Assembly (NCBI GenBank): GCA_963816145.1
Contig: CAWFJP010000009.1
Span: 64,001-128,000, forward strand
Direction: 5' to 3'
DNA length: 64,000 bases
Source of the DNA: an uncultured delta proteobacterium
Lineage (GTDB): Bacteria; Desulfobacterota; Binatia; UBA9968
The position numbers and the translations under genes were made by a program. The notes under the pieces are model-generated. The model ran no database searches. It was not told the DNA's origin and saw nothing but the letters and a program-made list of their open reading frames with translations. Of this stretch, positions 13,560-27,612 are shown piece after piece; position 1 is the stretch's first letter; every line of letters begins with the position of its first letter.

Positions 13560-14621
13560 GTGGGTGCGATTGACGCCGATGCGCATGTGATCGAGACCGT
13601 TCAGACCTGGAGTTATCTGGAAGGGGACGAGCGCCGTTTTACGCCGCAACTGATGACCCAGTCTTTCGGCGCGGAGTTGCTCAGCAACGAAGGAGATGCC
13701 GTGCGCGATTTTTGGGTGATCGAAGGACGCGCCCATGGCAAGGACCGCAATGTCGGCACCAACACCACCAAAGAATCGCGCGAGATGCTCAGCGTCGAGG
13801 CGCGGCTGGCGCATATGGACAAACTCGCCATCGAAGTTCAGGTGCTTTACCCGACGCTGTTTTTGCGGCCCATCGTGCAGGATGGCGAGCGCGAGCGGGC
13901 GCTGTGCAAATCTTATAACCGCTGGATGGGCGAGCTTTGGCGCCAGGGCCACGGCCGGCTGCGCTGGGTCGCCAAGCCGCCGCTGCAATATTTGGAAAAA
14001 TCACCGGCGGTCGTGCGCAACGAATTGGAGTGGGCCAAGCGGAACGGAGCCTGTGGCATCTTCATGCGCGGATTGGAGTGCGAGCGCGCCCTCGGTCACC
14101 CCTTTTTCTATCCGCTCTGGGAGATGTCGGCGGATCTCGATTTGCCGGTGTGCGTCCACTCGGCCAACGGCAGTTTCCTGCACCATGATTTTTTCGCCGA
14201 TGACACCAGCTTTACCAAATTCAAGCTCGCCGTCGTCGGCGCATTTCACACGCTCATGGAAAAACAGCTGGCGAAAAAATTCCCCAAGGTCCGCTGGGGT
14301 TTCGTCGAGGTCAGCGCCCAGTGGGTGCCCTATGTGCTCAATGATATGGCCGATCGCTACCGGCGCCAAGGCAAGGCCTTTCCCAATGATGCTCTCGCGG
14401 TCAACAACATGTGGGTCGCCTGCGAAAATAAAGACGATCTCCCGTACGTGTTGAGCTACGCGGGGGAGGATCGTTTGATGATCGGCACCGACTACGGCCA
14501 CCACGATCCATCGACGGAGCTCAACGCGGTGCATCTGCTGCGCAACGACAAGCGCTTGTCAGCCGATGTGGTGCAGCAAATTCTTGAGACCAATCCGCGC
14601 AAGTTTTACGGACTGGCGTGA
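13560..14621 (+). CDS. Amidohydrolase family 2 protein
   Basis: IDADAHVIE, QVLYPT, PVCVHS, GTDYGHHD, NPRKFYGL; GAGGAAGG RBS upstream. Confidence 0.9.
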   Translation: MGAIDADAHVIETVQTWSYLEGDERRFTPQLMTQSFGAELLSNEGDAVRDFWVIEGRAHGKDRNVGTNTTKESREMLSVEARLAHMDKLAIEVQVLYPTLFLRPIVQDGERERALCKSYNRWMGELWRQGHGRLRWVAKPPLQYLEKSPAVVRNELEWAKRNGACGIFMRGLECERALGHPFFYPLWEMSADLDLPVCVHSANGSFLHHDFFADDTSFTKFKLAVVGAFHTLMEKQLAKKFPKVRWGFVEVSAQWVPYVLNDMADRYRRQGKAFPNDALAVNNMWVACENKDDLPYVLSYAGEDRLMIGTDYGHHDPSTELNAVHLLRNDKRLSADVVQQILETNPRKFYGLA

Positions 14622-14672
14622 CGGTCAATTAGCTCGGAAGCGGGTGTAAGACGATGACGCGCGCGGCATCCG

Positions 14673-15620
14673 TCACGCCGAGCGCAGCGGCGTTTGGGCG
14701 GCGTTGTTTCCTTCCTTGCGAATCACATTCATGGCCAGGGCGATCATCGAGCCGACGTCGCTCAAGGTTGCCGGCAGAATCAGGGTGTTGCCTTGCTGGG
14801 CGAGTTTGCCGAACTGCGTGAGGTAATTGTCTGCCACGCGCAACTGCACGGCTTCGAAACCGCCTGGTTGTTGAATCGCCTCGGCAACTTTGCGGATACC
14901 GTTGGCGGTGGCGTCGGCGATGGACAGAATGGCTGCCGCTTCGCCTTCGGCCTCATTGATCTGTTGCTGCTTTTTTGCTTCCGACGCCTTGATGACTTGC
15001 TGCTTGTCGCCCTCGGCGCTGTTGATCGCCGCGTCCCGTTGGCCTTCGGAGGTTAGGATCAGGGCGCGCTTTTCGCGCTCGGCGCGCATCTGCTTTTCCA
15101 TCGCGGCCAAGATATCCTGCGGCGGTGTAATGTTTTTGATTTCGTAGCGCATCACTTTGATGCCCCAGGGCTCCGAAGCCTTGTCCAGTTCGCTGACCAC
15201 CTGGATGTTGATGTTGCTGCGTTCCTCGAAGGTACGATCGAGTTCGATTTTGCCCAACTCGCTGCGCAAAGTCGTTTGAGCGAGCTGGGTGATGCCGAAC
15301 GTATAATCGCCGATGCCGTAGGATGCGCGTTCGGGGTTGAGCACTTTGAGATAGAGCACGCCGTCCACGGACACTTGGACGTTGTCCCGGGTGATGCAGA
15401 CTTGCGGCGGGATATCGATGGCCTGCTCTTTCAATGAATGCTTGTAGCGAACGACATCGAAAAACGGCACGAGAATGTGAAATCCGGCGCCCAAAGAACC
15501 ACTGAACTTACCCAATCGCTCGACCACGTAAGCGCTTTGCTGGGGTACGACGACGGCGGTTTTGGCGACGATTATGATGATGAGCAAGGCCAGGACGACG
15601 ACAACAACGAACCCACCCAT
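14673..15620 (-). CDS. SPFH/band-7 stomatin-like protein (slipin/QmcA-like)
   Basis: VVERLGKF, ITRDNVQVSVDG, AQTTLRSELG, MEKQMRAEREKRA; GGAGG RBS before the ATG at 15620. Confidence 0.92.
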   Translation of the reverse strand: MGGFVVVVVLALLIIIIVAKTAVVVPQQSAYVVERLGKFSGSLGAGFHILVPFFDVVRYKHSLKEQAIDIPPQVCITRDNVQVSVDGVLYLKVLNPERASYGIGDYTFGITQLAQTTLRSELGKIELDRTFEERSNINIQVVSELDKASEPWGIKVMRYEIKNITPPQDILAAMEKQMRAEREKRALILTSEGQRDAAINSAEGDKQQVIKASEAKKQQQINEAEGEAAAILSIADATANGIRKVAEAIQQPGGFEAVQLRVADNYLTQFGKLAQQGNTLILPATLSDVGSMIALAMNVIRKEGNNAAQTPLRSA

Positions 15621-15635
15621 TGAAACCTCCATCGC

Positions 15636-16070
15636 TCAGCGATTCTCCGCACGGACAAAGAGAGTCAACCCTTCGACCCGTTCGACCAAGCAGCGCCCGC
15701 CGGTGGACAGCGCGGTTGCGCCAATATTGCGCGCGCTCCACGAGGTGCCGCGTAATTCGACTTTGCCGACGCCGTTCACGGCGATCTCGTCGACCACATG
15801 GGCGGTCTCGCCGATGAAGCTGTCGACCGGAACCTGCGCTTTTCCTTGAAACGTTTGCATTAACTTTTCGCGAAATAGCCAAAGCGCACACACGGAAATG
15901 ACGGAGAATAGCAAAACTTGCAGCCAAGCCGGGCCGGTGACATCGGCGAGCGCCAAAAGTCCGACGATTAGCCCGCCAATGCCGAAGAAGAGCAGGTAAA
16001 AGCCGCCCGGAGTGACGACTTCAGCGAAGACCAGCAACAAGCCGATTAGAATCCAGATCCACCAACTCAT
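15636..16070 (-). CDS. NfeD-family (YbbJ-like) membrane protein
   Basis: WWIWILIGLLLVFAEVVTPGGF, C-terminal OB fold GKVELRGTSWSA...VEGLTLFV; canonical partner of the SPFH gene. Confidence 0.9.
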   Translation of the reverse strand: MSWWIWILIGLLLVFAEVVTPGGFYLLFFGIGGLIVGLLALADVTGPAWLQVLLFSVISVCALWLFREKLMQTFQGKAQVPVDSFIGETAHVVDEIAVNGVGKVELRGTSWSARNIGATALSTGGRCLVERVEGLTLFVRAENR

Positions 16071-16281
16071 GGTTTGTGTCGACAAAATGTCGGCTGAACC
16101 TATCGAAGGTGACGAGGTTTTTCAAGGAAACTTTCTCAAAAATCGCGGCAACCTGCGGTCGGGAAGCTGCAGGATTCGCTGCGATCCCGGCAAGACCAGC
16201 AGCTCGGCACCCTGACGAAACCGGCGACATTGCCCAAGGGCGCATTGAGTCACCCTGCGGTGATGGGGTTTGGCGGCGTTT

Positions 16282-17544
16282 TCAATCGCTTTTTAACCGG
16301 CGGTGTTCGTCCTTGCGGCAGAGCGACAGGATAAACGCCGCGCAGCAGACCCCGGCGGCGCTGAGGAAAACGTCCTGAAGCGCCGGCAGCATTCCACTGA
16401 TAGCCACCGAGGATTTAATGGAAACTGGCACCGAATAGGACTGCTGACGCCGTTCGAAGAGCAGGCTCCAGCCGGTGGCGCCAAGGACGATGCCCAGGGG
16501 CCGCATCATGGCGGCGATGCTGCCGGCGACGCCTTGGTGCGAACGGGGGATGGAGCCCATGATAAAACTCATGTTGGGCGCTTCGAATATGCCGAGGCCC
16601 AAGCCGACGACTCCGAGAGCGAGAGCCAGCGAGAAATAGTCGGTTTGCCCATCCAAGCGGCTGAGCATCCACAGACCGAAACCTTGCACGGCCAGCCCCA
16701 GTGAACTGAGCCGCGCAGTGCCGATGCGGTCGGATAATTTTCCCGCCAGCGGCGCGGCGAGGATTGTCAGTAAGTATGTTGCCAGCATCAGCGTCCCACC
16801 GGTGGTGGCGGGATAGCGCAGCACGTTGATCACGTAATACGGCAGCAATAGACCGATGGCGAATCTGGCGCAGTTGGCCAGCACCGAAAGAAAGTTGGCG
16901 ATGATGAACGGTGGTAGGTGCGCAACGCTCAATACCGCCCAGGGCGGCTTGCCGCGTTGCCCCGTGCTCGGTTGCTCGCGCGTGGGAAGTTTGAAGGCCG
17001 CTAGCGCAGCGAGCAACACCGCGGGGGCCACTCTGAACAAGAAAGTGGCCCGCCAACCAAAGATGTCGATGAGCATGCCGCCGAGTAACGGACCGACGGC
17101 ATAGCCGACGGCGTTGCACATTTGATAGATTCCCAGCGCCCGGCCGCGGCTCTCAGCACTGACCGTCAAAGTGACTAACGCAGGAGCGGTGGCGAAAACG
17201 AGCGCGGCACCCGCGCCCTGGATGATTCTTCCGACGACGAGCCAGGCAAAGGTCGGCGCGATGCCGCAACAGGTAAACCCAACGGCACTTACTAACAATC
17301 CGTAGGCCAACAAGCGGTCGTGACCCCAGCGGTCGGCAAGGGCGCCACAGACGATCAGCAAGCTCGCATGGGTCAGCACATAGCCGACGATGACCCATTG
17401 GATCGCTGTGACCTCGAGAGAAAATGCCACGGTGATCGCCGGAAAGCCGATGTTGATGGCGCTATCGAGAGAACCTAACAGCGCGCTGAGACAGGCGATG
17501 ACGACTGACATTTGCCAGAGCGGCGAGCGACGGTCCTTTTTCAA
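16282..17544 (-). CDS. MFS transporter (DHA2/EmrB-like motifs)
   Basis: LDSAINIGFP, GALADRWG, GRIIQGAGAA, GPLLGG..FGWR, GKLSDRIG. Confidence 0.88.
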   Translation of the reverse strand: MKKDRRSPLWQMSVVIACLSALLGSLDSAINIGFPAITVAFSLEVTAIQWVIVGYVLTHASLLIVCGALADRWGHDRLLAYGLLVSAVGFTCCGIAPTFAWLVVGRIIQGAGAALVFATAPALVTLTVSAESRGRALGIYQMCNAVGYAVGPLLGGMLIDIFGWRATFLFRVAPAVLLAALAAFKLPTREQPSTGQRGKPPWAVLSVAHLPPFIIANFLSVLANCARFAIGLLLPYYVINVLRYPATTGGTLMLATYLLTILAAPLAGKLSDRIGTARLSSLGLAVQGFGLWMLSRLDGQTDYFSLALALGVVGLGLGIFEAPNMSFIMGSIPRSHQGVAGSIAAMMRPLGIVLGATGWSLLFERRQQSYSVPVSIKSSVAISGMLPALQDVFLSAAGVCCAAFILSLCRKDEHRRLKSD

Positions 17545-17577
17545 GAAACATCCTGGGGCAGGTCTTCTTTCGGATTA

Positions 17578-17662
17578 TTCACCACAGAGACGCAGAGACG
17601 CAGAGAACGCAGAGAAAATAAATTGCTCCCTTCCTCTGTGACCTCAGGGCCTCTGCGGTGCA
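17578..17662. repeat. Palindromic intergenic element (CACCACAGAGACGCAGAG type)
   Basis: TTCACCACAGAGACGCAGAGACGCAGAG...CTCTGTGACCTCAGGGCCTCTGCGGTG; structurally analogous to the CACCACGAAG elements. Confidence 0.65.
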
Positions 17663-17680
17663 AACTCCGAAGCTTTCGTT

Positions 17681-18778
17681 TCAGATCTGATAAAACTGCC
17701 GAGGATTGTCGCACAAGATCTTTTCGATCAATGCCGGGGCGACATCTTCACGCGACTGCATCTGCTTGACCAGTTGGGCTTGCTCGGCGGGATCGTTGTG
17801 GCCGTAGTCGGAACCGCTGATCAGGTGATCGGCGCCGGCGTATTCGATCAAGTAGTTCAAATCCTCATCGGCTTCGCAGGCGACGTAAAAGCGGCAGTCG
17901 TCGAACAAATCCCGCGGCGATTTCCACGATGTTTTCCAACGCTTGGTATTGTCCCGTTTCAGTTTGTGAATCAAGAATGGGATCCAGCTTGCCGAAGCTT
18001 CGAGAAAGCCGAAGCGTAGCTTCGGAAACATGTCGGGGATCCGGTTCAGCACGAGATCGCGGAACGCGTGCAGCGGCGGAAACGCCGAGTGGGACCACTG
18101 GCGGTTGCGTTCGAGGTCGAACATGGCGCTGATCGCCGGCGTGCTCGATCCGGTGTGGACGCAGATCGGCAGGTCGAGGTCGCTGGCGGCTTGGTAGGTA
18201 GGGTGGAACCGTGGGTTGTCGAGCGTGTATTCGCCTTCCATACCACGGAAGAATACGCCGACGGCGCCGTTCTGTTTGGCCCACTGTAATTCTTTGACCG
18301 ACTCGGCGATGTCGCGCAGCGGCGGTATCGCCACCCAATGAATGCGACCGTTACTCCGGGCGCAGGCTTGGGCGATGAAGCGGTTGTAAGCGCGGCTGAG
18401 CGCGACGTCGAGTTCGGGATCGTCGGTGAGGTAGACCAGAAACAGCGTCGGGTAGACGACCTGAGTGGCAATGCCGAGGCGGTCCATGTCGGCTAGCCGG
18501 CTGGGGATGTCGGTCATGTCGCGGCAGGCGACAGTCAAGTCTTTGCGATTGGATTGGATCTTCGACGCCGACGGCGTGATCAAGCGGAAGCCGCCTTTGC
18601 CGGCCGGCTTGGGAAAAATATTACCGTCGATGAGCCAGGTCTTGTTCCAGTTGCCGTAGAGAGTATTGTCCGGCAGCGACAGCAGCACGGGACGGCGGCC
18701 GTACATTTCTTTATCAAACATCGCCCACATCTCTTCGGATTCAGAAATGTGAGTATCGGCGTCGATGATCGGTTGCAT
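17681..18778 (-). CDS. Amidohydrolase family 2 protein
   Basis: IIDADTHISE, QVVYPT, PICVHTG, GSDYGHND, NPRQFYQI; paralog of 13560-14621. Confidence 0.9.
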   Translation of the reverse strand: MQPIIDADTHISESEEMWAMFDKEMYGRRPVLLSLPDNTLYGNWNKTWLIDGNIFPKPAGKGGFRLITPSASKIQSNRKDLTVACRDMTDIPSRLADMDRLGIATQVVYPTLFLVYLTDDPELDVALSRAYNRFIAQACARSNGRIHWVAIPPLRDIAESVKELQWAKQNGAVGVFFRGMEGEYTLDNPRFHPTYQAASDLDLPICVHTGSSTPAISAMFDLERNRQWSHSAFPPLHAFRDLVLNRIPDMFPKLRFGFLEASASWIPFLIHKLKRDNTKRWKTSWKSPRDLFDDCRFYVACEADEDLNYLIEYAGADHLISGSDYGHNDPAEQAQLVKQMQSREDVAPALIEKILCDNPRQFYQI

Positions 18779-18802
18779 AAAAACCTCCGGTTTGTTTTGG
18801 TT

Positions 18803-18856
18803 TGGCGTCTAGGGTTGGATTCGAGAACGCTAGACGCCAGACTCTAGACTCTAAAC
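18803..18856. repeat. Short inverted heptamer-type repeat
   Basis: TGGCGTCTAG...CTAGACGCCAGACTCTAGACTCTAAAC. Confidence 0.55.
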
Positions 18857-18863
18857 GAAACAT

Positions 18864-19851
18864 CTACGGCAAGAAACTCAAATCGATCAGTTGCTGCACG
18901 GTTAGACTCTTCGCTTTTGCATTCTCCTTCGCGATATCGTCGAGCGCCAATTGCATGCCTTTGATACTCGGCTTGCCGTCGTCGGGTAAGGATCGGATAC
19001 GCTGGATGTAATCGAATTCCGCTATGGCGCGGTCGTTGGTGCGCAGCCGCTTCATGGTTTCGCGGATGGCGACCTCTTTTTGCGTCTTATAATAGCGCAC
19101 GCTGTCGAGATAGGCCTTCATGAAACGGCGCACCAGGTCGGCGCGTGATCTTGAGCATATCGTCGCGGGCGATGATCGCCACCTGCTGGTACTCGATATC
19201 TTTCTCGATGAAGTCGAGCAGCAGGTTGAGGCCGCTCTTCTGGCCGATCTGGACCAAACCGAGGGTGAGAACGGCGGCGTCGATACTGCCCGCCTGCAGC
19301 GCGGTTAATCGGGTGGCGGCGCTGCCGACCTGAGTGATGCTGACATCAGTCTTGGGATTCAAGCCGAATTGTGACAATGCCAGCTTGACGGCGAAGTCAT
19401 CCGTGCTGCCGAAGCGGCTGATACCGATGCGTTTGCCTTTGAGCTGGGCCGGCGTCTTGATGTTGGCCAGGGAGACAAAGCCATAGGGGAGTTTGTTATT
19501 CACGCCGCCGATCATTTTTGTCTGGGCGCCTTCGAGATAGGCGACGATGTAGGGCGTGCCGCCGGTGCACAGGAAGTCCAAACTCTTGCCGATGAGCGCC
19601 TGCATGGACAGCGTGCCGCCGGCGATAAAGATCACTTCGACGTCGAGCTGGTTCTGTTTGAGCACGCCGGCGTCCCTGGCGATGCTGAACAACACCGACT
19701 CGGCGCTCGCCGGCGAATTGGTGCCGACGCGCAGGGTTGGCACTTGCGCCCACAGCGGGCAGGCTAGTGCAAGGCTGGCGATGACGATGGCGAGCCGGCA
19801 AGGCCAGTGTTCAGGCGTTACGGCAAGTAGAGGGGGAGATGAGTTCTTCAT
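18864..19851 (-). CDS. ABC-type solute-binding protein, SsuA/THI5-like (one +1 frameshift near 19149)
   Basis: LKGKRIGISRFGS. Removing one base joins ARDDMLK to SRADLVRRFMKAYLDS...LIDLSFLP. Confidence 0.85.
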
Positions 19852-19994
19852 CGGCGTCGTTAGAGCTAATGCAAAGCCACCCGGCTGTCAACGTGAAAGA
19901 TTGCCATTGGCGGTTGCAGGCCCAGCGCGAGTTTGCGTATATAAGCTAAACCAGCGGGAAAGTCTGACGGCATTTTTGAGGAGGAAAGAGCTAG

Positions 19995-20603
19995 ATGGCG
20001 ACTATCAAATTTCTCGATCCGCGGGCAGCGGTTAATCCCAAGGAGCAACCATTGGTGCCGGGCTTGGATTCGCTCGAAGGCAAGGTCATCGGCATCATCG
20101 ATAACGGCCAGTCCAATTCGACGGACATGTTCAAGGAGCTGAGCAAATTGCTGCAGGAACGGCTCCACGTCAAAGCAGTGTTGTTCAAGACCAAGCCGAC
20201 GCATATGCAAGGCGCTCCCAAGCCGATCATGGAGGAAATCGTAAACCAGTGTGACGCGGTCATTACCGGTTTAGGCGCTTGAGGTTCATGCACATCGTGG
20301 AGTGTCCACGATGCCATCGATCTGCAAAAGAAAGGCAAACCGACGGTGACGCTGTGCCAGTCGATTTTTATGGAATTGGCGCGCACCGAAGCGAAGTTCT
20401 TCGGTCTCGCTAAACTGCCGCTAGTCGAGATCCCGCATCATCCGAGCGGCGGCGCGCGCGAAGGAGAGCATCGGGCGGACGCCGAAGGGGCGATCGGGTT
20501 GGTTAACGAGCAGCTGAGCTTGAGCAGCGCTGGAGGAGGCAAGCAGGCGAAGACGGGTGATCCCTCTCCTAAATCCCCCCGCAAGCGGGGTAGGAAATTG
20601 TAG
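19995..20603 (+). CDS. UGSC-family selenoprotein (Sec at codon 96, UGA 20280-20282), 202 aa
   Basis: ORFs 19995-20282 and 20346-20603 are in frame. Read-through gives AVITGLGA-U-GSCTSWSVHDAIDLQKKGKPTVTLC...LPLVEIPHHP. GAGG RBS upstream and a SECIS-like hairpin downstream. Confidence 0.88.
20293..20313 (+). promoter_or_regulatory. Putative bacterial SECIS element
   Basis: CATCGTGGA-GTG-TCCACGATG: perfect 9-bp stem starting at +11 after the UGA, with G as first loop base. Confidence 0.8.
20562..20596 (+). repeat. C/G-rich REP-like palindrome, copy a
   Basis: CCCTCTCCTAAATCCCCCCGCAAGCGGGGTAGGAA; same family as 20651, 21027 and 41794. Confidence 0.6.
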
Positions 20604-20635
20604 AATTCGCGCTGACGAGAGCGTGTGAGAATTCC

Positions 20636-21140
20636 ATGTCGGAGTCTTTATTCCTTCCCCCGACTCGGGGGAAGGCTAGGATGGGGGGCGTGGCCACTAC
20701 AATCCAGAAAGCGCGTACGTTAAGAAGCAATTTGACGGATGCGGAACAGTTTCTCTGGCGGCGCTTGCGATTGCGTCAACTCGATGGCCACAAATTTAGA
20801 CGACAACGACCACTTGGACCATACATCGTCGATTTTGTCTGTTTGGAGAAAAAATTAGTAATCGAAGTCGATGGTGGCCAGCATAGCGACAATAAAGTCT
20901 ACGATTCGAGAAGCGCGATCGACTGGACTTAAGACACAAGGTTATCGAATCGTAAGATTTTGGAACAACGAAGTGCTGAAAAACATCGAAGGTGTGATCG
21001 AGATTATTCAGTGTGCTGCGAATGAACCCCCACCTGTATCCTCCCCCGGTTTCGGGGGAGGAAGGTACACCCGTGGCGCGGTGCTAGATAAGCTTGGCGG
21101 GAGTAAATCTATGACAAAGCGGAGTCTTAATAAGCGATGA
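20636..21140 (+). CDS. DUF559 (Vsr/PD-(D/E)xK-like) endonuclease-domain protein (one +1 frameshift near 20927)
   Basis: ARTLRSNLTDAEQFLWRRLR, KFRRQRPLGPYIVDF, LVIEVDGGQH. Removing A20927 continues DWLKTQGYRIVRFWNNEVL. True start may be 20681 or 20690. Confidence 0.85.
20651..20688 (-). repeat. C/G-rich REP-like palindrome, copy b
   Basis: TTCCTTCCCCCGACTCGGGGGAAGGCTAGGATGGGGGG; inverted relative to the copy at 21027. Confidence 0.7.
21027..21064 (+). repeat. C/G-rich REP-like palindrome, copy c
   Basis: CCCCCACCTGTATCCTCCCCCGGTTTCGGGGGAGGAAG. Confidence 0.75.
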
Positions 21141-22202
21141 ACCTCACCTCAAACCTAATCGAAGTCGAAGATAGTTGGGAAGCGGTCAATGACTGGTTCT
21201 TGAAGGAAAAGCTCAGCGACGGCTTGCCCATCGTGCCGCCGACGGCGGCGCGGGTGGAGAAAATGCTCGCGGCGACGGCGCGCGATCCGGCGCAGGTCAT
21301 TGGGCCGATTCCGCCGAAGTGGGCGCCTTGCTCGATCGAGAAGATCGCCATTAACGCCGTCATGGCGGGCTGTTTGCCGGAATATTTGCCGGTGATCATC
21401 GCCGCGGTGGAAGCGATCTGCGAGCCGCGCTTCAATCTTTACGGCGTCCAGGCGACCACCGGTTACGTCGGCCCGGCGCTGCTGCTCAATGGACCGATTC
21501 GCACGGCGCTGAACGTCAACTGCGACTCGGGAGTGTTCGGTCCTGGTTTTCGATCCAATGCGACCATCGGCCGGGCGATTCGCTTGATTCTCATCACGGT
21601 GGGCGGCGGCTATCCCGGCGATACCGATCGCTCTACTTTCGGCTGGCCGGGAAAGTATACCATGTGTTTCGGCGAGAACCAGGAGAAAAGTCCCTGGGAA
21701 CCCTATCACGTCGAGTTCGGTTTCAAACCTGACGAGAGCACGGTCACGGTCTTCGGCATCAACGGATTTCTGCCGATCCACACCGCCGGCAATCGCGGCG
21801 AGCAGGCGCTGGCTTCATTGGCCGAAGTGATCAGGATGCATCATGGTGTCAGCCATCTGGACGTCGGCAGCTTCGGCGGTGGTACGCCGCTGATCGCGCT
21901 GGGCATCGAGGACGCCGAGATCATGGCGCGGGACGGTATCACCAAGAAGCAGGTCAAAGATTATCTCTGGGAGCATGCGTCGCTCAAGTTCGAAGAAATC
22001 CCGGCGCGGCGCAAAGGGCACAAGTCCGATGACGAATTGATGCGCGAGTCGATCAACATGACGCCGGACGGCGTGGTGCATCTATCCGACCAAGGCGGAA
22101 GACATCATGGTGATCGTCATCGGCGGCAAGCATCGCCATTCGGTGTTTCTGCCGATGTGGACGGGGCGCAATACGTTGTGTGTGATCAAAGGAATTGAGT
22201 AA
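21137..22202 (+). CDS. Conserved uncharacterised protein, probable UGSC partner (one +1 frameshift near 22086)
   Basis: SDGLPIVPPT, EKIAINAVMAGC, GVQATT, NGPI, NATIGRA, ENQEKSPWEP. Removing one C restores HLSTKAEDIMVIVIGGKHRHSVFLPMW...IE*. Confidence 0.75.
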
Positions 22203-22219
22203 GGCGTCAGGAGTAAAGG

Positions 22220-23239
22220 GTGAGGCGTAAGGCGTTAGGAGTGAGGAGTCGCGAGTTGGGGCGGGCACTGCTCGCTCTATCCTTTGTCTTAGTGCAATGC
22301 GCCATCGCTAGCCTGGCACCAGCCCAGGAAAAGGTTCGTTTCCCCATCGGGGCTTCTTCGAAGACCTTCAGTTATGGACCGTTGTGGCTGGCGCAGAAGC
22401 TCGGTTACTTCGAGCGCGAGGGGTTGGACGTACAGATAGTCGTCATGCGCGGCACGCCGATCACGCTGCAAGCGCTTGCGACCGAGTCGATTTATGCCGC
22501 TAATGCCGGCACCGATGGTGTCATTACGGCCGTGGATAAAGGTTTGGATTTCGCCATGGTCGGTAGCTTGCTCAACAACCTGAGCATGAGCCTGGTCGCC
22601 GCCAAGCCGTACAAGACTTTCGACGATCTGCGCGGCAAGACTATCGGTTCGCAAACCCTCACCACGGGCACCGGGTTTGCGCTGCGCTTGGTGTTGCGCG
22701 CGCATGGGCTTGAATACCCGCGCGACTACCAGATTTTTAATGTCGGCGGCGTCACTGACCGCTATCTCGCGCTGCAATCCGGACAAATCGCCGCGACGCC
22801 GCTGAGCGTGCCGCTCGATAACGACGCCAAACAAAAGGGGTTCAATGTCATAGGTTACTTCGCCGACGATCTACCGACTTATTTTTTCAATCCCTATATC
22901 GTCAAGCGCTCTTGGGCCGAGAAAAATCGACCGCTAGTGGTGCGCTATATGAAGACGATCACGCAAACCCACCGCTGGCTGTTCGACAACCGCGACCCGG
23001 CCTGCGCGTATCTGGCGAAGGAAATGTCGATGACCGTGGAGAACTGCCGTATTGCCTGGGAATACAGCGTCAAGAATCGCGTGTGGGATCGCAACGCCGA
23101 GCTCAATGTGGACGGCGTGCGCACCATGATCAAGATCGTCGCCGAGATCAACGGCCAGAAGGAGCCGCTGGCACAGCCGGCGAAATATATCGATCCGAGT
23201 TATTTGAAGCAAGCGCTGGGAGAGTTGGCGAAGAAGTAA
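22220..23239 (+). CDS. ABC-type solute-binding protein, SsuA/THI5-like
   Basis: Signal peptide, YGPLWLAQKLGYFEREGL, DLRGKTIG, KYIDPSYL. Confidence 0.88.
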   Translation: MRRKALGVRSRELGRALLALSFVLVQCAIASLAPAQEKVRFPIGASSKTFSYGPLWLAQKLGYFEREGLDVQIVVMRGTPITLQALATESIYAANAGTDGVITAVDKGLDFAMVGSLLNNLSMSLVAAKPYKTFDDLRGKTIGSQTLTTGTGFALRLVLRAHGLEYPRDYQIFNVGGVTDRYLALQSGQIAATPLSVPLDNDAKQKGFNVIGYFADDLPTYFFNPYIVKRSWAEKNRPLVVRYMKTITQTHRWLFDNRDPACAYLAKEMSMTVENCRIAWEYSVKNRVWDRNAELNVDGVRTMIKIVAEINGQKEPLAQPAKYIDPSYLKQALGELAKK

Positions 23240-23278
23240 GATAGTCAGGAGCAAGTAGTCAGGAGTTAGGAGTTTCAG

Positions 23279-24259
23279 ATGATGAGACGAATCGTCGCCG
23301 GCTGCTTACTAATGTTCGGTCTGCTCGCGGGACGTATCGACGCCCAGGAAAGGTTTCGCTTCCCCATCGGCGAGTCATCGAAGACCTTGAGCTATGGGCC
23401 ACTGTGGGTGGCGGCGAAGATGGGTTTCTTTGAGAAGGAGGGGTTAGAAGTTCCGATCGTTACCATGCGCGGTTCGCCCCTGACCATTCAAGCGCTGACG
23501 GCCGATTCCATTTACGTCGCCAGCGCCACCGTCGACACGCTCATCAACGCGTACGAGAGAGGCGCGGATATCACCATGATCGGCGGCTTGATCAATGGAC
23601 TTGGGTTGAGCATGATCGGCGCCAAGCAGTACAAGACCTACGGAGACCTGCGCGGCACGACTATCGGTTCCCAGACGCTAACCTCCGGCACCGGCTTCGC
23701 CCTGCGGCTGGTGATGAAAGTCCACGGCCTTGAATATCCGCGAGACTATAAGCTCCTGAACATCGGCAGCGCGCCGGATCGCTTTCGGGCGTTGGCTTCG
23801 GGGCAGATCTCATCCGCGCCCGTGGGTGTGCCACTCGACCTCGTCGCAAAGCAACAAGGTTTCAACATCATCGGCTATTTCGCCGACGATCAGCCCAATT
23901 TTCAGTTCAACGTCTATATCGTCAAGCGTTCTTGGGCGGAAAAAAACCGGACGTTGGTGGTGCGCTTCATGAAAGCGATGGTCGCGACGATGCGTTGGAT
24001 GGCTGACAACCGCGACGCGGCCTGTGCTTATCTGACCAAGGAGATGTCCATCGGCATGGACGATTGCCGCTATGCCTACGATTATAACTGGAAAAACCGT
24101 ATATGGGATCGCAATGCCGATCTCAACGTCGAAGGCGTGCGCACGATCATCAATTTAACCGCGGACCAAGGGGTCTTGAAAGAGCCTCTGCCCCAACCGT
24201 CGAAATACGTCGATCCCAGCTATCTCAAACAGGCCCTCGCGGAAGTGGGCAAGCCGTGA
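23279..24259 (+). CDS. ABC-type solute-binding protein, SsuA/THI5-like (tandem paralog of preceding gene)
   Basis: Shares RFPIG.SSKT.SYGPLW, GSQTLT.GTGFALRLV, HGLEYPRDY and WDRNA.LNV.GVRT with 22220-23239. Confidence 0.88.
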   Translation: MMRRIVAGCLLMFGLLAGRIDAQERFRFPIGESSKTLSYGPLWVAAKMGFFEKEGLEVPIVTMRGSPLTIQALTADSIYVASATVDTLINAYERGADITMIGGLINGLGLSMIGAKQYKTYGDLRGTTIGSQTLTSGTGFALRLVMKVHGLEYPRDYKLLNIGSAPDRFRALASGQISSAPVGVPLDLVAKQQGFNIIGYFADDQPNFQFNVYIVKRSWAEKNRTLVVRFMKAMVATMRWMADNRDAACAYLTKEMSIGMDDCRYAYDYNWKNRIWDRNADLNVEGVRTIINLTADQGVLKEPLPQPSKYVDPSYLKQALAEVGKP

Positions 24260-24308
24260 AAGGTGAGGCGAGCAACTTGAGGCGCGAGACAGAAAAATAG
24301 GAGTAAGT

Positions 24309-25310
24309 ATGGATAAGTCAATTCGCTTGGCTGCTTTGATTTCGTTATTGAGCGTGGCATCTCTGGCCGCTTCTGTCAGCGCCCAGGACAAGATTCGCAT
24401 GGGCTTGAGTTCGGTGAGCGGGTTACACACCGCTGTCTGGGTGGCTGAAACAAAAGGGCTCTTTCGTAAACACGGATTGGATGTCGAAGTGATCGTCACC
24501 GGCCAGGGCGGCACTGCGGGCATTAGCGCGCTAATTGCGAACGACGTGCAAATGGTGAACTCAGCCGGCGATGTCTTGGTCGCGGCTGCACTGCGCGGCG
24601 GCGATACCGTGATGGTCGCCGGTGTCGTCAACAAGGGGCTGCAGCGGTTGATCACCAAGCCCGACATAAAAACTCCCGCGGATCTAAAGGGCAAACGAGT
24701 CGGCGTCACCCGCATTGGCGCGGTGTCCCATTCCGTGTTGTTGATGATGCTGCAGCGCTGGAAGATGAGCGTCAACGACGTCCAGGTCATGCAGCTCGGC
24801 TCGTCGCCGAGCATGCTGGCGACCCTGGACAAGGGAGGCATCGAAGGAGCTGTGGTGACGATTCCTTCGATGTTCGTCGCCGAAGACCGCGGATATCGAG
24901 TGTTGCTCGATATGGCCGATACCGACATTTACTATTTGCATACGATGGTCGCGACAACGCGCCAATACATCAAAAATAATCGCGACAAGGTGCTGCGCTT
25001 TCTCAAGGGTTATGTCGAAGGAATTGCGTTTGTCAAACATAACAGGCAGGAAAGTGTGGACATCGTCAAGAAGAAGCTTCGCATCGGTCCCGAGCAGGAG
25101 AAGACTCTGGAACGCTCGATAGATTTATTAGTCGCGAAATACTACGAGTCGGTGCCCTATCCATCGTTGCGCGGCGTTGAAACGGTGCTCGGCTTCATCG
25201 AAAAGGACAATCCCAAGGCGAAGACCGCCGATCCGAAGTCGTTCGTCGACGACAGTTTGCTGCGCGAGATCGAGCAGAGCGGGTTTGTGAAGACGCTTTA
25301 TGCGAAATAG
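24309..25310 (+). CDS. ABC-type solute-binding protein, SsuA/THI5-like
   Basis: Signal peptide, GLFRKHGLDVE, DLKGKRVGVTRIG, REIEQSGFVKTLY. Confidence 0.88.
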   Translation: MDKSIRLAALISLLSVASLAASVSAQDKIRMGLSSVSGLHTAVWVAETKGLFRKHGLDVEVIVTGQGGTAGISALIANDVQMVNSAGDVLVAAALRGGDTVMVAGVVNKGLQRLITKPDIKTPADLKGKRVGVTRIGAVSHSVLLMMLQRWKMSVNDVQVMQLGSSPSMLATLDKGGIEGAVVTIPSMFVAEDRGYRVLLDMADTDIYYLHTMVATTRQYIKNNRDKVLRFLKGYVEGIAFVKHNRQESVDIVKKKLRIGPEQEKTLERSIDLLVAKYYESVPYPSLRGVETVLGFIEKDNPKAKTADPKSFVDDSLLREIEQSGFVKTLYAK

Positions 25311-25343
25311 CGCTTGCCGAGGGAAACTATTACTGTAATCCGC

Positions 25344-25374
25344 TTGACAGCTTCCCAACGGCTCGAATAAGAAT
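25344..25374 (+). promoter_or_regulatory. Possible sigma70-type promoter
   Basis: Perfect TTGACA at 25344 and TAAGAAT about 18 nt later, upstream of the AGGAGG RBS of ech. The -10 match is imperfect. Confidence 0.35.
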
Positions 25375-25403
25375 TGAATAAATTAACCTAGGAGGTACGA
25401 AAA

Positions 25404-26243
25404 GTGGCTGCAACATTATGGAAAGAATATAAGACCGTTAGGGTTGAAAAAGAAGACGGGACGACCTGGTGTATTCTCAATCGGCCTGAGAAAAGAAACG
25501 CCATGAACCCGCAGCTTCATTATGACATGCTCGAAGCCCTGACCGAACTGGAAGTCGACAAGGAAACTCAGGTGCTGGTGCTGACCGGAGCCGGGCCGAG
25601 CTGGTGCGCCGGCCAGGACTTGCGCGAATATTTCCGCGGGACGGATAACAATGCCCTTGAGCGGCGCAAAGCCAGCTGGGCGTCGCAAGAATGGCGCTGG
25701 CGCCGGCTGTTCTATTTTCCCAAGCCGACCATTGCCATGGTCAACGGCTTTTGCTTCGGCGGCGCGTTCACGCCGCTGATCGCTTGCGACTTTGCGATTG
25801 CTGCTGAAGATGCGACCTTCGGCTTGAGCGAAATCAATTGGGGTATTTTCCCGGGCGGGTTGGTCAGCCGCGTGTTGGCGGACGCCATGAGTTATCGCGA
25901 CGCCATGTGGTACATCATGACCGGCGATCCTTTTGACGGCAAAAGAGCCGCGGAAGTGAAGTTGGTCAATTTTGCCGTGCCGAAAGACAAGCTGCGCGAA
26001 GAGACCATGAAGCTCGCCGACAAGCTGAAGAAGAAGAATCCTCAGGTGCTGCGCGCTGCTAAGGAAGTCTACAAACACTGCCGCACCATGGAATACAGCC
26101 AGGCCGAAGAATACATGTCGGCCAAGGGAACGGCGCTGCGTCTCACCGACCCGGAAAAGGGGCGCGAGACCGGCATGGAGCAGTTCCTCGACAAAAAGAC
26201 CTACCGTCCAGGCTTGGGCGAGTACAAGCGGGACGCGAAGTAG
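25404..26243 (+). CDS. ech: p-hydroxycinnamoyl-CoA hydratase/lyase (feruloyl-CoA hydratase-lyase, crotonase fold)
   Basis: HCHL-diagnostic motifs AGQDLREYFR, SQEWRWRRL, CFGGAFTPLIACD, FGLSEINWGIFPG, QFLDKKTYRPGLGEY. Confidence 0.88.
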   Translation: MAATLWKEYKTVRVEKEDGTTWCILNRPEKRNAMNPQLHYDMLEALTELEVDKETQVLVLTGAGPSWCAGQDLREYFRGTDNNALERRKASWASQEWRWRRLFYFPKPTIAMVNGFCFGGAFTPLIACDFAIAAEDATFGLSEINWGIFPGGLVSRVLADAMSYRDAMWYIMTGDPFDGKRAAEVKLVNFAVPKDKLREETMKLADKLKKKNPQVLRAAKEVYKHCRTMEYSQAEEYMSAKGTALRLTDPEKGRETGMEQFLDKKTYRPGLGEYKRDAK

Positions 26244-26379
26244 TTAGAGAGGATAATGGAAAACAGAATGGGGAAGTCGGAGGGAATTGCTGATGTACGT
26301 GAGCAGGGTTTCCGAATTATCTATTCTTTTCATTATCCTACTCCTGATCATTCTGAAGTCTATTTACCGAGTGACCACG

Positions 26380-27540
26380 ATGGATTTCAATCTTCCCGAA
26401 GAGCTGCAGCTTTTAAAAGACACGGTTCGTAAATTCGTCGACCGCGAGCTGATTCCGCTGGAGCGAGAGTGCCGGCCGGAAGGCGAGGACATGCCGGAGC
26501 AGTTTATTAAACCGCTCCAGGAAAAGGCCAAGGCGATCGGCCTCTGGCTGCTCGACGTGCCCCAAGAATACGGCGGTGCCGGGCTCGACCTGATGAGCCG
26601 CTGCGTGATCATGGAAGAGGTCGCGCGCACCATCGCGATTCCGTTTCGCTACGCGCCGATCTTCGGGCCGGAAGTGCGGCCGGTGCTATTTCACTGCAAC
26701 GACGAACAGAAAAAGCGTTTCCTGCAGCCGGTGATCGACGGTAAAATCAAAATTTGCTTTGCCCAGACCGAGCCCGATGCGGGAAGCGATCCGGCCGGCA
26801 TGAAGACCCGGGCAATCAAAGACGGTGACTCCTACGTCATCAACGGCACTAAAAGATTTATCACCGGCGCCAAGAGCGCCGATTACGCCCAGGTCATCGC
26901 GGTCACCGATCCGGCCAAGGGCGCGCGCGGCGGCGTGAGTTGTTTCATGGTCAGCATGAAGGCGCCCGGCGTGACGCTGGAAAAATTGTGGCCAACCATG
27001 ATGGGCGACACCCCGGGACAAATTCATTTTGAAAATGTCCGCGTATCGGCGGCCGATATGATCGGCGGCGAGGGACAGGGCTTTTCCATCGCGCAGAAGT
27101 GGATCGAAGAGGGGCGCGTGCGCGGCCACGGCGCACGGCCGGTGGGTATCGCTTCGCGCGCCCTCGACATGATGATCGAATACTCAAAAGTGCGCACGAC
27201 CTTCGGCCAGCCGCTGGCCAATCGCCAAGCGATTCAATTCATGATCGCCGACTCGGCGATGGAGCTGCACGCTTGCCGTTTGATGGTTTACGAATGCGCC
27301 TGGCGCCATGACCGCGGCGAAGATATTCGCCAACTCTCTTACATGACGAAGATCCAGTGCGCCGAGATGGCCAGCCGCGTGGTCGACCGCTCGATCCAGG
27401 TCCACGGCGGTCTAGGCCTCATGCGCGAACTGCCGTTGGAATGGTGGTACCGCCAAGTGCGCAGCCTGCGCATCACCGAAGGCACGCCGGAAGTGCTGCG
27501 CTGGCGGCTGGCGGAGCATATCATCAGAAATCACAAGTGA
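26380..27540 (+). CDS. Acyl-CoA dehydrogenase
   Basis: MDFNLPEE, FAQTEPDAGSD, INGTKRFIT, RTTFGQPLANRQAIQ, QVHGGLG, RITEGTPEV. Confidence 0.93.
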   Translation: MDFNLPEELQLLKDTVRKFVDRELIPLERECRPEGEDMPEQFIKPLQEKAKAIGLWLLDVPQEYGGAGLDLMSRCVIMEEVARTIAIPFRYAPIFGPEVRPVLFHCNDEQKKRFLQPVIDGKIKICFAQTEPDAGSDPAGMKTRAIKDGDSYVINGTKRFITGAKSADYAQVIAVTDPAKGARGGVSCFMVSMKAPGVTLEKLWPTMMGDTPGQIHFENVRVSAADMIGGEGQGFSIAQKWIEEGRVRGHGARPVGIASRALDMMIEYSKVRTTFGQPLANRQAIQFMIADSAMELHACRLMVYECAWRHDRGEDIRQLSYMTKIQCAEMASRVVDRSIQVHGGLGLMRELPLEWWYRQVRSLRITEGTPEVLRWRLAEHIIRNHK

Positions 27541-27552
27541 CGAAGTTCGGGT

Positions 27553-27612
27553 CGAGGATGGAGGATTGAAGATTGACGATAGCCATCCTCGATCCTCCAT
27601 CATCCATCCTCG
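27553..27612. repeat. Inverted heptamer-type repeat
   Basis: GAGGATG GAGGATT GAAGATT GACGATA / CATCCTC GATCCTC CATCATC CATCCTC. Confidence 0.7.

What the first reader, a model, noticed from the sequence alone, without database searches (positions are those of the whole stretch)
19995..20603. Hidden selenoprotein: in-frame UGA creates a U-G-S-C motif, with a perfect SECIS-like hairpin at +11
Seen: the 95-aa ORF stops at TGA (20280-20282), but the frame stays open to 20603 and reads GLGA-[UGA]-GSCTSWSVHD...GKPTV. CATCGTGGA-GTG-TCCACGATG (20293-20313) forms a perfect 9-bp stem with G as first loop base. Established: bacterial SECIS elements lie in the coding region just 3' of the UGA with an apical-loop G. 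UGSC proteins are a predicted selenoprotein family without a known function, and the UxxC context resembles UGTC in GrdB/PrdB. Inference: this is one 202-aa protein with Sec96/Cys99 that standard gene callers split into two fragments.
Basis: partly seen in the sequence, partly recalled or inferred. Interest (0 to 1): 0.9.

Follow-up and report, generated by a model that had tools for sequence, protein, structure and literature searches.

The report
UGSC-family selenoprotein gene, correctly spotted

Summary
Observation and interpretation both hold. The frame 19995-20603 reads through TGA 20280-20282. The 202-aa product matches Pfam UGSC (PF24696) at 145.7 bits, across the TGA.

- **Sec column:** 66 of 69 diverse full-length homologues have Cys there. 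In 61 related genomes, 119 of 122 UGSC matches carry exactly one in-frame TGA.
- **Hairpin:** The hairpin at 20293-20313 is under RNA-level selection. Its synonymous sites are frozen in 29 of 29 loci, while flanking codons vary. Two stem pairs change in a compensatory way.
- **Machinery:** The genome has selA, selB, selD and tRNA-Sec.
- **Novelty:** The family has been in print since 2007-2008 and has its own Pfam and NCBIfam models, so this is a new member of a known kind.

Results added here:
- The predicted fold is a flavodoxin-like alpha/beta domain.
- The Sec-bearing half is a remote homologue of the Sec module of GrdB/PrdB-type proteins (hhalign probability 94.8%).
- The gene is almost always next to, or fused with, a roughly 355-aa protein with no Pfam family and no solved fold match.
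- An Amidohydro_2 gene is often nearby.

The chemistry is inferred, not shown.

The parts
19978..19985 (+). Shine-Dalgarno-like GAGGAGGA, 9 nt before the ATG
   Evidence: Read directly from the sequence.
19995..20606 (+). UGSC-family selenoprotein gene: 202 codons plus TAG stop. The conserved domain is residues 6-174. The tail, residues 175-202, is not conserved.
   Evidence: Translation with TGA=U. Pfam PF24696 scores 145.7 bits over residues 6-174. NCBIfam NF041046 scores 109 bits, below its cut-off of 125. In the model the tail has pLDDT 49-77. A related DNA contig (X1) differs by indels at 20557, 20562 and 20575.
20280..20282 (+). In-frame UGA, read as selenocysteine 96
   Evidence: The column is Cys in 66 of 69 homologues. 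It is TGA in 119 of 122 matches in related genomes.
20289..20291 (+). Cys99 codon (TGC), the C of the U-G-S-C motif and the proposed resolving cysteine
   Evidence: The column is Cys in 65 of 69 homologues.
20293..20313 (+). SECIS-type hairpin: stem 20293-20301 / loop GUG 20302-20304 / stem 20305-20313. The loop G and U are nucleotides 23 and 24 counted from the U of UGA.
   Evidence: Folded. Stem codons are frozen in 29 of 29 loci, with compensatory changes. Position and loop letters match the E. coli rule quoted in PMC8659212 (passage).
20636..21140 (+). DUF559 reading frame in two pieces (20636-20932 and 20871-21140), lying between the UGSC gene and its partner gene. Not part of the module.
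   Evidence: Pfam PF04480 scores 93.8 bits on the first piece and covers only profile positions 4-73 of 109. ORFs. Flanking perfect hairpins at 20653 and 21039. 12-nt direct repeat at 20640 and 21120.
21137..22202 (+). Partner gene: a roughly 355-aa protein with no Pfam or NCBIfam family. In this window it is frameshifted near 22088.
   Evidence: No family hit. At least 7987 homologues, the 120 listed either unnamed or called only 'hypothetical protein'. The alignment shows the C-terminus deviating after ...VHLS. The +1 frame restores ...EDIMVIVIGGKHRHSVFLPMWTGRNTLCVIKGIE. DNA contigs of runs X1 and X2 lack one base at 22088.
17681..18778 (-). Amidohydro_2 gene, a recurrent neighbour of UGSC-partner pairs
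   Evidence: Pfam PF04909 scores 84.6 bits. A homologue lies within 1.5 kb of the UGSC gene in 17 of 31 loci.
19087..19851 (-). NMT1-like solute-binding protein gene
   Evidence: Pfam PF09084 scores 55.1 bits.
22220..25310 (+). Three tandem NMT1-like solute-binding protein genes (22220-23239, 23279-24259, 24309-25310)
   Evidence: Pfam PF09084 scores 68.0, 69.6 and 89.0 bits.

Best explanation
Positions 19995-20606 encode one 202-residue protein of the UGSC selenoprotein family.

**Decoding (inferred from the sequence features).** UGA 20280-20282 is read as selenocysteine. While the ribosome sits on the UGA, the hairpin 11 nt downstream, with loop G23-U24, is bound by SelB carrying Sec-tRNA(Sec). 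The genome encodes that tRNA and selA, selB and selD.

**The protein (predicted).** The model is a flavodoxin-like alpha/beta domain. Sec96 lies at the N-terminal end of a helix, directly after a beta strand, and Cys99 lies one turn later. The two could therefore form a selenenylsulfide.

**Relatives and partner (shown).** This Sec-bearing half is a remote homologue of the Sec module of GrdB/PrdB-type reductase subunits. The protein is almost always encoded next to, or fused with, the roughly 355-aa protein found here at 21137-22202, so the two very likely work together.

**Chemistry (inferred, about 40% confidence).** The partner binds a small organic substrate. That substrate may be supplied or processed by the neighbouring Amidohydro_2 enzyme and imported through the NMT1-like binding proteins. 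Sec96 acts as the nucleophile or reductant on it. Cys99 resolves the intermediate to a Se-S bond, which cellular thiol systems then reduce.

The confidence of 0.85 given for this explanation covers the gene's identity as a Sec-decoded UGSC-family gene and its pairing with the partner. It does not cover the chemistry.
For: **Shown**
- The Pfam UGSC match crosses the UGA.
- The Sec column is Cys in 66 of 69 homologues and the Cys99 column is Cys in 65 of 69. These 69 are 24-35% identical to the query and were hand-picked from the 150 listed.
- 119 of 122 UGSC matches in 61 related genomes have exactly one in-frame TGA. Two of the other three are contig-end fragments that do not reach the column, and one is a remnant.
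- All four paralogues in this genome carry the TGA.
- Stem codons are fixed in 29 of 29 distinct loci: Ser TCG, Ser AGT, His CAC and Val/Ile xTC. The invariant Gly and Ser codons just upstream each use 4 synonymous codons.
- The window has ACA...GAT (an A-U pair) where 28 other loci have ACG...GAC (a G-C pair).
- Two divergent members (L029, L030) keep a hairpin at the same place, with the G-C pair turned to C-G and a GUG or GUU loop.
- selA, selB, selD and tRNA-Sec(TCA) are present. selA scores over its cut-off in 56 of 61 related genomes.
- 7 of 11 neighbouring Pfam-supported genes end in TGA, so TGA is the ordinary stop codon here.
- The UGSC model has pLDDT 90.4, with strand 88-94 followed by helix 97-112.
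- hhalign of the UGSC profile against the six GRDB paralogues gives probability 94.8%, E = 5.3e-8, 99 columns, Sec columns aligned. Negative controls give 0.2% and 1.0%.
- A partner homologue follows or is fused to 4 of 4 paralogues and lies within 1.5 kb in 30 of 31 loci.
- 13 of the 150 best cluster representatives are 485-563 aa, and the 5 that were read are UGSC-partner fusions.
Against: - There is no direct evidence of selenium in the protein.
- The NCBIfam equivalog model NF041046 scores 109 bits, below its curated cut-off of 125.
- The hairpin has no bulged U, unlike the E. coli fdhF element (passage in PMC8659212). The energy of the 71-nt region is not exceptional (z = -1.33).
- Hairpin conservation is partly confounded by the conserved peptide TSWSVHD. 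The related loci are also kin, so the 29 are not independent.
- The partner gene in this window is frameshifted near 22088, and a DUF559 frame separates the two genes. This particular pair may therefore be impaired, or the assembly may carry indel errors.
- The UGSC fold match is generic: 409 chains reach Z >= 8, the best is Z 11.2, and none stands out. It says nothing about the chemistry.
- The partner's Cys79, invariant in my 32-sequence alignment, is Ala in the fused forms P0182 and P0029. It cannot be a universal redox partner.
- The partner is not detectably related to GrdE/PrdA (hhalign probability 0.1%), so the analogy to glycine/proline reductase covers only the Sec module.
- The genome bin has 6.7% estimated contamination, and the Sec genes lie on a different contig (C30) from the window (C9).
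Confidence: 0.85

Rival explanations
1. The TGA is a true stop. The locus holds two small unrelated genes (95 aa and 85 aa), or only the first is real.
For: Table 11 gives exactly these two ORFs. TGA is the usual stop codon in neighbouring genes (7 of 11). Public databases hold many such halves as separate proteins.
Against: - A single Pfam domain spans both halves.
- Full-length homologues with Cys at the column are common (66 of 69).
- The second ORF's GTG start at 20346 would cut off residues 97-117, which include the conserved GSCTSWS..D stretch with the invariant Asp106.
- The TGA is kept at the same column across 119 of 122 matches.
Confidence: 0.02
2. The TGA is a nonsense mutation or a sequencing error in a gene that normally has Cys, making this a pseudogene or an artefact.
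For: The same 2.3-kb stretch contains two frames that look shifted: the partner gene near 22088 and DUF559. Indel or base errors, or decay, are therefore plausible locally.
Against: - The TGA is present in all four paralogues of this genome.
- It is present in 119 of 122 matches in 56 of 61 related genomes.
- Synonymous sites in the hairpin after it are under selection.
- Contigs from other runs, including RNA contigs, match exactly the 33-nt stretch 20280-20312 that starts at the TGA (tables 7 and 8).
Confidence: 0.02
3. The UGA is read through as an ordinary amino acid (Trp, Cys or Gly) by a general or local recoding that does not involve selenocysteine.
For: The database proteins P0001-P0004 show W at this column.
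Against: - Those W residues are most simply explained by a gene caller that chose a TGA=Trp code for short contigs of 1.0-1.4 kb (inference).
- TGA ends 7 of 11 neighbouring genes.
- The complete Sec machinery is present.
- The hairpin has the position and the G-U loop of a SelB site.
- In one related genome, G009, neither UGSC nor selA over its cut-off was found. This is a single genome, 93% complete.
Confidence: 0.02
4. It is a genuine selenoprotein, but its role is that of a thioredoxin-like thiol/selenol-disulfide oxidoreductase. [quoted passage not shown]
For: - The U-x-x-C motif at a helix N-terminus is the classic redox-motif geometry.
- PMC2398784 (passages) proposes a Trx-like fold and a redox role.
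- The protein atlas gives automatic names such as 'Thioredoxin (Fragment) family protein' to partner-like clusters. This is a lead only.
Against: - The model's secondary-structure order is five alternating strand-helix units.
- Its best structural neighbours are flavodoxin-like, receiver-like and periplasmic-binding-protein half-domains. No thioredoxin appears among the 50 rows shown.
- The only detectable remote homologue is the Sec module of GrdB/PrdB-type proteins. In PrdB (recalled) the Sec is proposed to attack the substrate.
- The partner's conserved Cys is not universal.
Confidence: 0.3

Closest known systems
UGSC family (seleno)protein (Pfam PF24696; NCBIfam NF041046). This is the 'UGSC-containing protein' of Zhang and Gladyshev (PMC1976440 from 2007, PMC2398784 from 2008).
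   Same: - The domain matches over residues 6-174 at 145.7 bits.
- The U-G-S-C motif sits at the conserved column.
- The gene is fused or adjacent to a second conserved domain. The 2008 paper reports a UGSC/'Unknown_1' fusion (passages).
- The function is still listed as uncharacterised in a 2026 review (PMC13188914, passages).
   Different: - The score is below the NCBIfam equivalog cut-off (109 against 125 bits).
- There is an extra non-conserved 28-residue tail.
- The source is a soil/wetland lineage whose closest named homologues are labelled Candidatus Binatia. The family was first described from marine and aquatic data.
- I could not confirm that 'Unknown_1' is the partner found here, because the supplementary figure is closed.
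GrdB/PrdB-type selenoprotein subunits of glycine/betaine/sarcosine and D-proline reductases (Pfam PF07355 GRDB)
   Same: - The motif after a beta strand is U-G-[ST]-C/x.
- A profile-profile alignment covers 99 columns with the Sec columns aligned. It runs through the following helix and E..GxP.V strand to the (P)HP.G segment (probability 94.8%).
- A hairpin follows the UGA at a similar distance.
   Different: - There is no Pfam GRDB match even at E <= 10.
- UGSC lacks the roughly 320-residue N-terminal part of GrdB.
- Its partner is unrelated to the GrdE/PrdA family (PF09338), which sits beside each of the six GRDB paralogues in this genome.
- Whether the chemistry is the same is unknown.
E. 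coli fdhF-type bacterial SECIS element
   Same: It is a hairpin inside the coding region starting 11 nt after the UGA, with G23 and U24 in the apical loop (PMC8659212 passage; window sequence).
   Different: - It is a perfect 9-bp stem with a 3-nt loop and no bulged U17.
- Binding by this organism's SelB has not been tested.
- No Rfam family matches the region.

Membership tests
Pfam PF24696 UGSC family | Score over the family's gathering cut-off (25 bits) across the whole domain | tested here: met
   145.7 bits, residues 6-174 matching profile positions 2-170 of 172.
Pfam PF24696 UGSC family | U/C-G-S-C motif at the conserved column | tested here: met
   The window reads U96-G-S-C99. In 69 homologues the four columns are C 66, G 67, S 58 and C 65.
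NCBIfam NF041046 UGSC_fam (equivalog) | Score over the curated cut-off of 125 bits | tested here: not met
   109 bits, E = 2e-31, residues 29-174. The window protein was scored with Cys in place of Sec.
Bacterial selenoprotein gene | In-frame UGA aligned with Cys (or UGA) in homologues, with homology on both sides | tested here: met
Bacterial selenoprotein gene | Stem-loop shortly after the UGA with G in the apical loop (SECIS) | tested here: met
   Hairpin at 20293-20313 with loop GUG at nucleotides 23-25. Synonymous-site conservation and two compensatory pairs. The criteria come from the passage in PMC8659212. The 16-37-nt window of bSECISearch is recalled.
Bacterial selenoprotein gene | selA, selB, selD and tRNA-Sec present in the genome | tested here: met
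   All score over their family cut-offs on contig C30. ARAGORN finds tRNA-SeC with anticodon tca.
Bacterial selenoprotein gene | Selenium actually incorporated at the UGA | not testable with these tools
   This needs 75Se labelling or mass spectrometry.
Pfam PF07355 GRDB (GrdB/PrdB) | Match to the family model | tested here: not met
   The only Pfam family at E <= 10 is PF24696.
Pfam PF07355 GRDB (GrdB/PrdB) | Homology of the Sec-bearing C-terminal module | tested here: met
   hhalign probability 94.8%, E = 5.3e-8, 99 columns. Controls give 0.2% and 1.0%.
Pfam PF07355 GRDB (GrdB/PrdB) | Pairing with a GrdE/PrdA-type (PF09338) subunit | tested here: not met
   The partner has no Pfam family. 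Against the genome's seven PF09338 proteins it gives hhalign probability 0.1%.
Thioredoxin-like fold (as proposed in PMC2398784) | Fold likeness to thioredoxin-fold structures | tested here: inconclusive
   No thioredoxin-fold chain appears among the rows shown by Foldseek or VIA-align. The model has five alternating strand-helix units. A family that is not listed is not excluded.

The most novel reading that the evidence does not exclude
UGSC plus its partner protein, often together with an Amidohydro_2 enzyme, form a previously uncharacterised selenoenzyme system of soil, wetland and aquatic bacteria. In it, a minimal GrdB/PrdB-type Sec module has been recruited to a catalytic subunit whose fold has no solved counterpart. 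The system would carry out a Sec-dependent reductive bond cleavage on a small imported organic compound. This would be a Stickland-type chemistry outside anaerobic amino-acid fermenters.
Probability: 0.3. Interest if true: 0.65.

Novelty: new member of a known kind. Interest (0 to 1): 0.3.

Why it matters
**For annotation.** The locus is a clean example of a selenoprotein that table-11 gene callers cut in two. Public protein databases hold the halves, TGA-as-Trp versions and frame-hopping versions of it. This genome carries at least eleven such genes: four UGSC, six GRDB-type and selD.

**For biology.** The UGSC family is one of the most abundant environmental selenoprotein families and still has no known function (PMC2398784 and PMC13188914, passages).
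- the Sec module is related to GrdB/PrdB rather than being visibly thioredoxin-like;
- it is nearly always coupled to one partner protein of unknown fold;
- an Amidohydro_2 gene is a frequent neighbour.

None of this makes the finding itself surprising to a selenoprotein specialist.

Tried and rejected
- **Fold energy of the 71-nt region.** z = -1.33, which is not significant on its own. I relied on comparative evidence instead.
- **Rfam scan of 19800-20800 at E <= 10.** It returned only two chance-level rows and no SECIS family.
- **Sequence searches of the PDB.** There were no hits for the UGSC protein or the partner at E <= 1. The UGSC profile gave only chance-level rows. The GRDB profile gave no hit at E <= 0.01.
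- **Fold searches for the partner model (pLDDT 79.6, pTM 0.84).** Foldseek found nothing at E <= 0.001. VIA-align over 48,161 chains gave a best Z of 4.7 and none at 5 or above. A missing match does not show that the fold is new.
- **Fold searches for the UGSC model.** Many generic alpha/beta neighbours appeared and no specific relative.
- **Partner against GrdE/PrdA paralogues by hhalign.** No relation (probability 0.1%).
- **Protein atlas for the partner.** It returned only unnamed clusters or automatically named ones ('Thioredoxin (Fragment) family protein'). I treated these as a lead.
- **Supplementary Figure S1A of PMC2398784.** The identity of 'Unknown_1' with the partner described here is therefore unverified.
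- **Sequencing runs.** No run held more than 0.56 of the sampled words. The RNA runs X15 and X16 held 0.14. Their contigs cover 20432-20557 and 20966-21529 and, as a short piece of a paralogue, 20280-20312. This does not show that the window's gene is expressed, and stretches without cover mean nothing.
- **Partner Cys79 as the redox partner of Sec96.** I considered this and dropped it as a general feature, because P0182 and P0029 have Ala there.
Full report
**What is in the sequence.**
- An ATG at 19995, preceded by GAGGAGGA at 19978-19985, opens a frame that table 11 closes at TGA 20280-20282 after 95 codons.
- Read with TGA as a residue, the same frame runs to TAG 20604-20606 and gives 202 residues with ...AVITGLGA-U-GSC-TSWSVHDAIDLQKKGKPTV....
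- From 20293 to 20313 the DNA reads CATCGTGGA-GTG-TCCACGATG. This is a perfect 9-bp stem with a 3-nt loop, beginning 11 nt after the TGA.
- RNAfold places this hairpin in both the MFE and the centroid structure.

**Is the hairpin more than chance?**
- The energy of the 71-nt region is unremarkable (z = -1.33).
- Perfect hairpins of this quality are scarce. There are 8 distinct ones in 64 kb (12 position/loop hits), against a mean of 2.7 hits in 30 Markov resamples.

**One protein, a known family.**
- The read-through product matches Pfam PF24696 'UGSC family' at 145.7 bits (cut-off 25), over residues 6-174 and so on both sides of the UGA.
- It matches NCBIfam NF041046 'UGSC family (seleno)protein' at 109 bits, which is below that model's curated cut-off of 125.
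- No other Pfam family appears even at E <= 10.
- A scan of 1.84 billion cluster representatives found 986 relatives at E <= 0.001.
- From the 150 listed I picked the 69 of about 170-215 residues whose match spans the motif. I left out fragments, fused forms and a few of intermediate length.
- In their alignment the Sec column is C in 66, and S, H and G in one each. The next columns are G in 67, S in 58 and C in 65.
- The closest database relatives split as follows:
  - Some stop at ...GLGA (P0007, P0012, P0154).
  - Some begin near residue 118 (P0161, P0170).
  - Some carry W at the column (P0001-P0004). I take these to be TGA read as Trp by a gene caller on contigs of 1.0-1.4 kb; this is an inference.

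**The TGA is conserved.**
- This genome (7.8 Mb, 31 contigs, 99.5% complete, 6.7% contamination) has four UGSC matches, each with one in-frame TGA.
- Among 61 genomes of the same order (this one included), 56 have the family.
- Of their 122 matches, 119 have exactly one TGA. Two have none, but they are contig-end fragments covering profile positions 100-171 and 2-80, which miss the Sec column near position 92. One is a 61-position remnant with three stops.
- These tallies include two unpublished genomes (G005, G035). Without them the figures are 54 of 59 genomes and 114 of 117 matches.
- In the 33 loci fetched, the TGA sits at the U-G-S-C position in the 31 that my first pattern found. In the other two it sits at U-G-G-C (L030) and U-S-T-C (L024).

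**The hairpin is selected as RNA.** I compared 29 distinct loci that encode U-G-S-C-T-S-W-S-[VI]-H-D. From the 33 loci I excluded L040 as unpublished, and L024, L029 and L030 because their peptide differs.
- The codons that form the stem never vary at synonymous sites: Ser TCG 29 of 29, Ser AGT 29 of 29, Val/Ile xTC 29 of 29, His CAC 29 of 29.
- The equally invariant Gly and Ser just after the UGA each use four codons, and an invariant Asp upstream uses GAT 18 times and GAC 11 times.
- The Thr and Asp third positions pair with each other. They read ACG...GAC in 28 loci and ACA...GAT in the window, which is a compensatory double change.
- In L029 and L030 the peptide differs (SSGSVLD, SSGSLHD). 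A hairpin remains at the same nucleotides, with the G-C pair next to the closing pair turned to C-G and a GUG or GUU loop.
- Counted from the U of UGA, the loop G and U are nucleotides 23 and 24, and the stem starts 11 nt after the codon.
- A review of the E. coli element gives the same 11-nt spacing and the same G23 and U24. It also gives a bulged U17, which is absent here (PMC8659212, one passage read).
- The loci are kin, so these counts overstate independence. The contrast between stem and flank codons is still clear.

**The machinery is there.**
- selA (616 bits), selB (417 bits) and selD (380 bits, itself with one in-frame TGA) lie together at C30:562492-566803.
- A tRNA-Sec (74 bits, Rfam cut-off 47; ARAGORN anticodon tca) lies at C30:576761.
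- The window is on contig C9, so contamination could in principle separate the gene from the machinery. Against that, selA scores over its cut-off in 56 of 61 related genomes.
- Two individual genomes are worth noting. In G009 (93% complete), neither UGSC nor selA over its cut-off was found. G027 (92% complete) has five UGSC genes but no selA was found.
- TGA ends 7 of 11 neighbouring Pfam-supported genes, so there is no general reassignment of the codon.

**What the protein looks like.**
- With the 70-row alignment, AlphaFold2 gives pLDDT 90.4 and pTM 0.82. The model has five strand-helix units: E31-36, H40-57, E61-66, H76-85, E88-94, H97-112, E117-122, H123-135, E143-146, H156-175.
- Sec96 lies between strand 88-94 and helix 97-112, and Cys99 lies in the first turn of that helix.
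- The tail after residue 175 is poorly predicted and lies outside the Pfam domain.
- Structural neighbours are numerous and generic: flavodoxin-like, receiver, LacI-type and periplasmic-binding half-domains. The best has Z 11.2 and 409 chains reach Z >= 8. The Foldseek picture is similar.
- No thioredoxin-fold chain is among the rows shown. The 'likely Trx-like fold' of the 2008 paper (PMC2398784, passages) is not supported here, but it is not excluded either.

**A link to GrdB/PrdB.**
- The genome has six full matches to Pfam GRDB (PF07355).
- Each runs into a TGA straight after ...(I/L)LT(S/A)(T/A). The frame continues as U-G-S-C, U-G-T-C, U-G-T-S (twice), U-G-S-S or U-G-T-G, followed by ...E(L/I)E(K/R)xG(I/M)P....
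- A profile-profile comparison of the 70-row UGSC alignment with these six proteins aligns 99 columns with the Sec columns matched. UGSC columns 76-181 align to GRDB columns 324-426, at probability 94.8% and E = 5.3e-8.
- The same UGSC profile gives 0.2% against the partner family and 1.0% against the GrdE/PrdA-type proteins.
- I found no statement of this relationship in the passages I read. I did not search for it beyond the two literature searches.

**A constant partner.**
- The ORF at 21137-22198 (353 aa) has no Pfam or NCBIfam family and no PDB relative by sequence.
- It has at least 7987 database homologues. The 120 listed either carry no name or are called only 'hypothetical protein'. 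The closest named ones come from bins labelled Candidatus Binatia.
- Its model (pLDDT 79.6, pTM 0.84) has no convincing solved neighbour.
- A homologue follows or is fused to all four UGSC genes of this genome. One lies within 1.5 kb of the UGSC gene in 30 of 31 loci from related genomes; the exception is a locus cut short by a contig end.
- Thirteen of the 150 best UGSC representatives are 485-563 aa. All five that I read are UGSC-partner fusions, with CGAS, SGAP, CGSC, CGNC or CGTS at the motif.
- The 2008 paper reports a UGSC/'Unknown_1' fusion. I could not open its supplementary figure to confirm that this is the same domain.
- An Amidohydro_2 homologue lies within 1.5 kb in 17 of the 31 loci. 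In the window it is at 17681-18778.
- NMT1-like binding-protein genes flank the pair in the window and in the C3 locus.

**Mechanism.**
- *Shown:* the gene structure, the conserved UGA, the selected hairpin, the machinery, the partner linkage and the remote homology.
- *Inferred for decoding:* SelB carrying Sec-tRNA(Sec) binds the hairpin and delivers Sec at UGA 20280.
- *Inferred for function:* Sec96 and Cys99 cycle between the selenol/thiol state and a selenenylsulfide. The partner provides the substrate site. By analogy with PrdB (recalled, not checked here), Sec may attack the substrate and Cys99 may resolve the adduct.
- *Alternative:* the protein could serve purely as a redox carrier. 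This remains a serious possibility (about 0.3).

**Caveats specific to this window.**
- The partner's last 40 or so codons are out of frame. The +1 frame restores the conserved C-terminus. Contigs of two DNA runs from different studies lack one base at 22088. The shift is therefore either an assembly error or private to this strain.
- A DUF559 frame, itself in two pieces, sits between the two genes.

**Verdict.** This is a correct and well-argued detection of a real selenoprotein gene, but of a family that already has Pfam and NCBIfam models and about twenty years of literature. It is a new member of a known kind.

Noticed in passing
window 22060-22202: The partner gene (21137-22198 as called) loses its frame after ...VHLS. 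The +1 frame reads the conserved ...EDIMVIVIGGKHRHSVFLPMWTGRNTLCVIKGIE and stops at 22200-22202. Contigs of DNA runs X1 and X2 lack one base at 22088, which would restore the frame. The shift is an assembly error or a strain-private frameshift.
   Followed up: partly
window 20636-21140: A DUF559 (PF04480) frame is split into two overlapping ORFs (20636-20932 and 20871-21140) between the UGSC gene and its partner. It is bounded by GC-rich perfect hairpins at about 20653 and 21039 and by a 12-nt direct repeat (20640 and 21120, 92% identical). It looks like a small inserted element. Related contigs differ here by several indels, at 20906, 20921 and 20927.
   Followed up: partly
G000 contigs C27, C5, C31, C8, C29, C4 (loci L058-L063): There are six GRDB-family (PF07355) genes. 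Each has an in-frame TGA right after the Pfam match, reading U-G-[ST]-[CSG], and each lies beside a GrdE/PrdA-type (PF09338) gene. The search tool reported 'no stops inside' only because the Pfam model ends just before the Sec.
   Followed up: partly
G000 C30:562492-566803 and C30:576761 (L009, L010, L018, L001): selA, selB and selD form one cluster, and selD itself contains an in-frame TGA (a Sec-form SelD). tRNA-Sec lies about 10 kb downstream.
   Followed up: no
G000 C8:25892 (L024): A divergent paralogue is fused to its partner domain in a 560-aa frame. It has U-S-T-C instead of U-G-S-C and a different GC-rich hairpin with a 4-nt loop after the UGA.
   Followed up: partly
database proteins P0001-P0006, P0020: Public gene calls of close relatives show W at the Sec column (P0001-P0004) or drift into another frame around it (P0005, P0006, P0020). 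These are annotation artefacts of an unrecognised Sec codon.
   Followed up: no
related genomes G009 and G027: In G009 (93% complete), neither UGSC nor selA over its cut-off was found. G027 (92% complete) has five UGSC genes with TGA but no selA match. These may reflect co-loss in one case and an assembly gap in the other.
   Followed up: no
window 13560-28840: The neighbourhood is rich in paralogous genes: two Amidohydro_2 genes and four NMT1-like binding-protein genes. Further along come an MFS transporter, an enoyl-CoA hydratase, an acyl-CoA dehydrogenase and a family III CoA-transferase.
   Followed up: no
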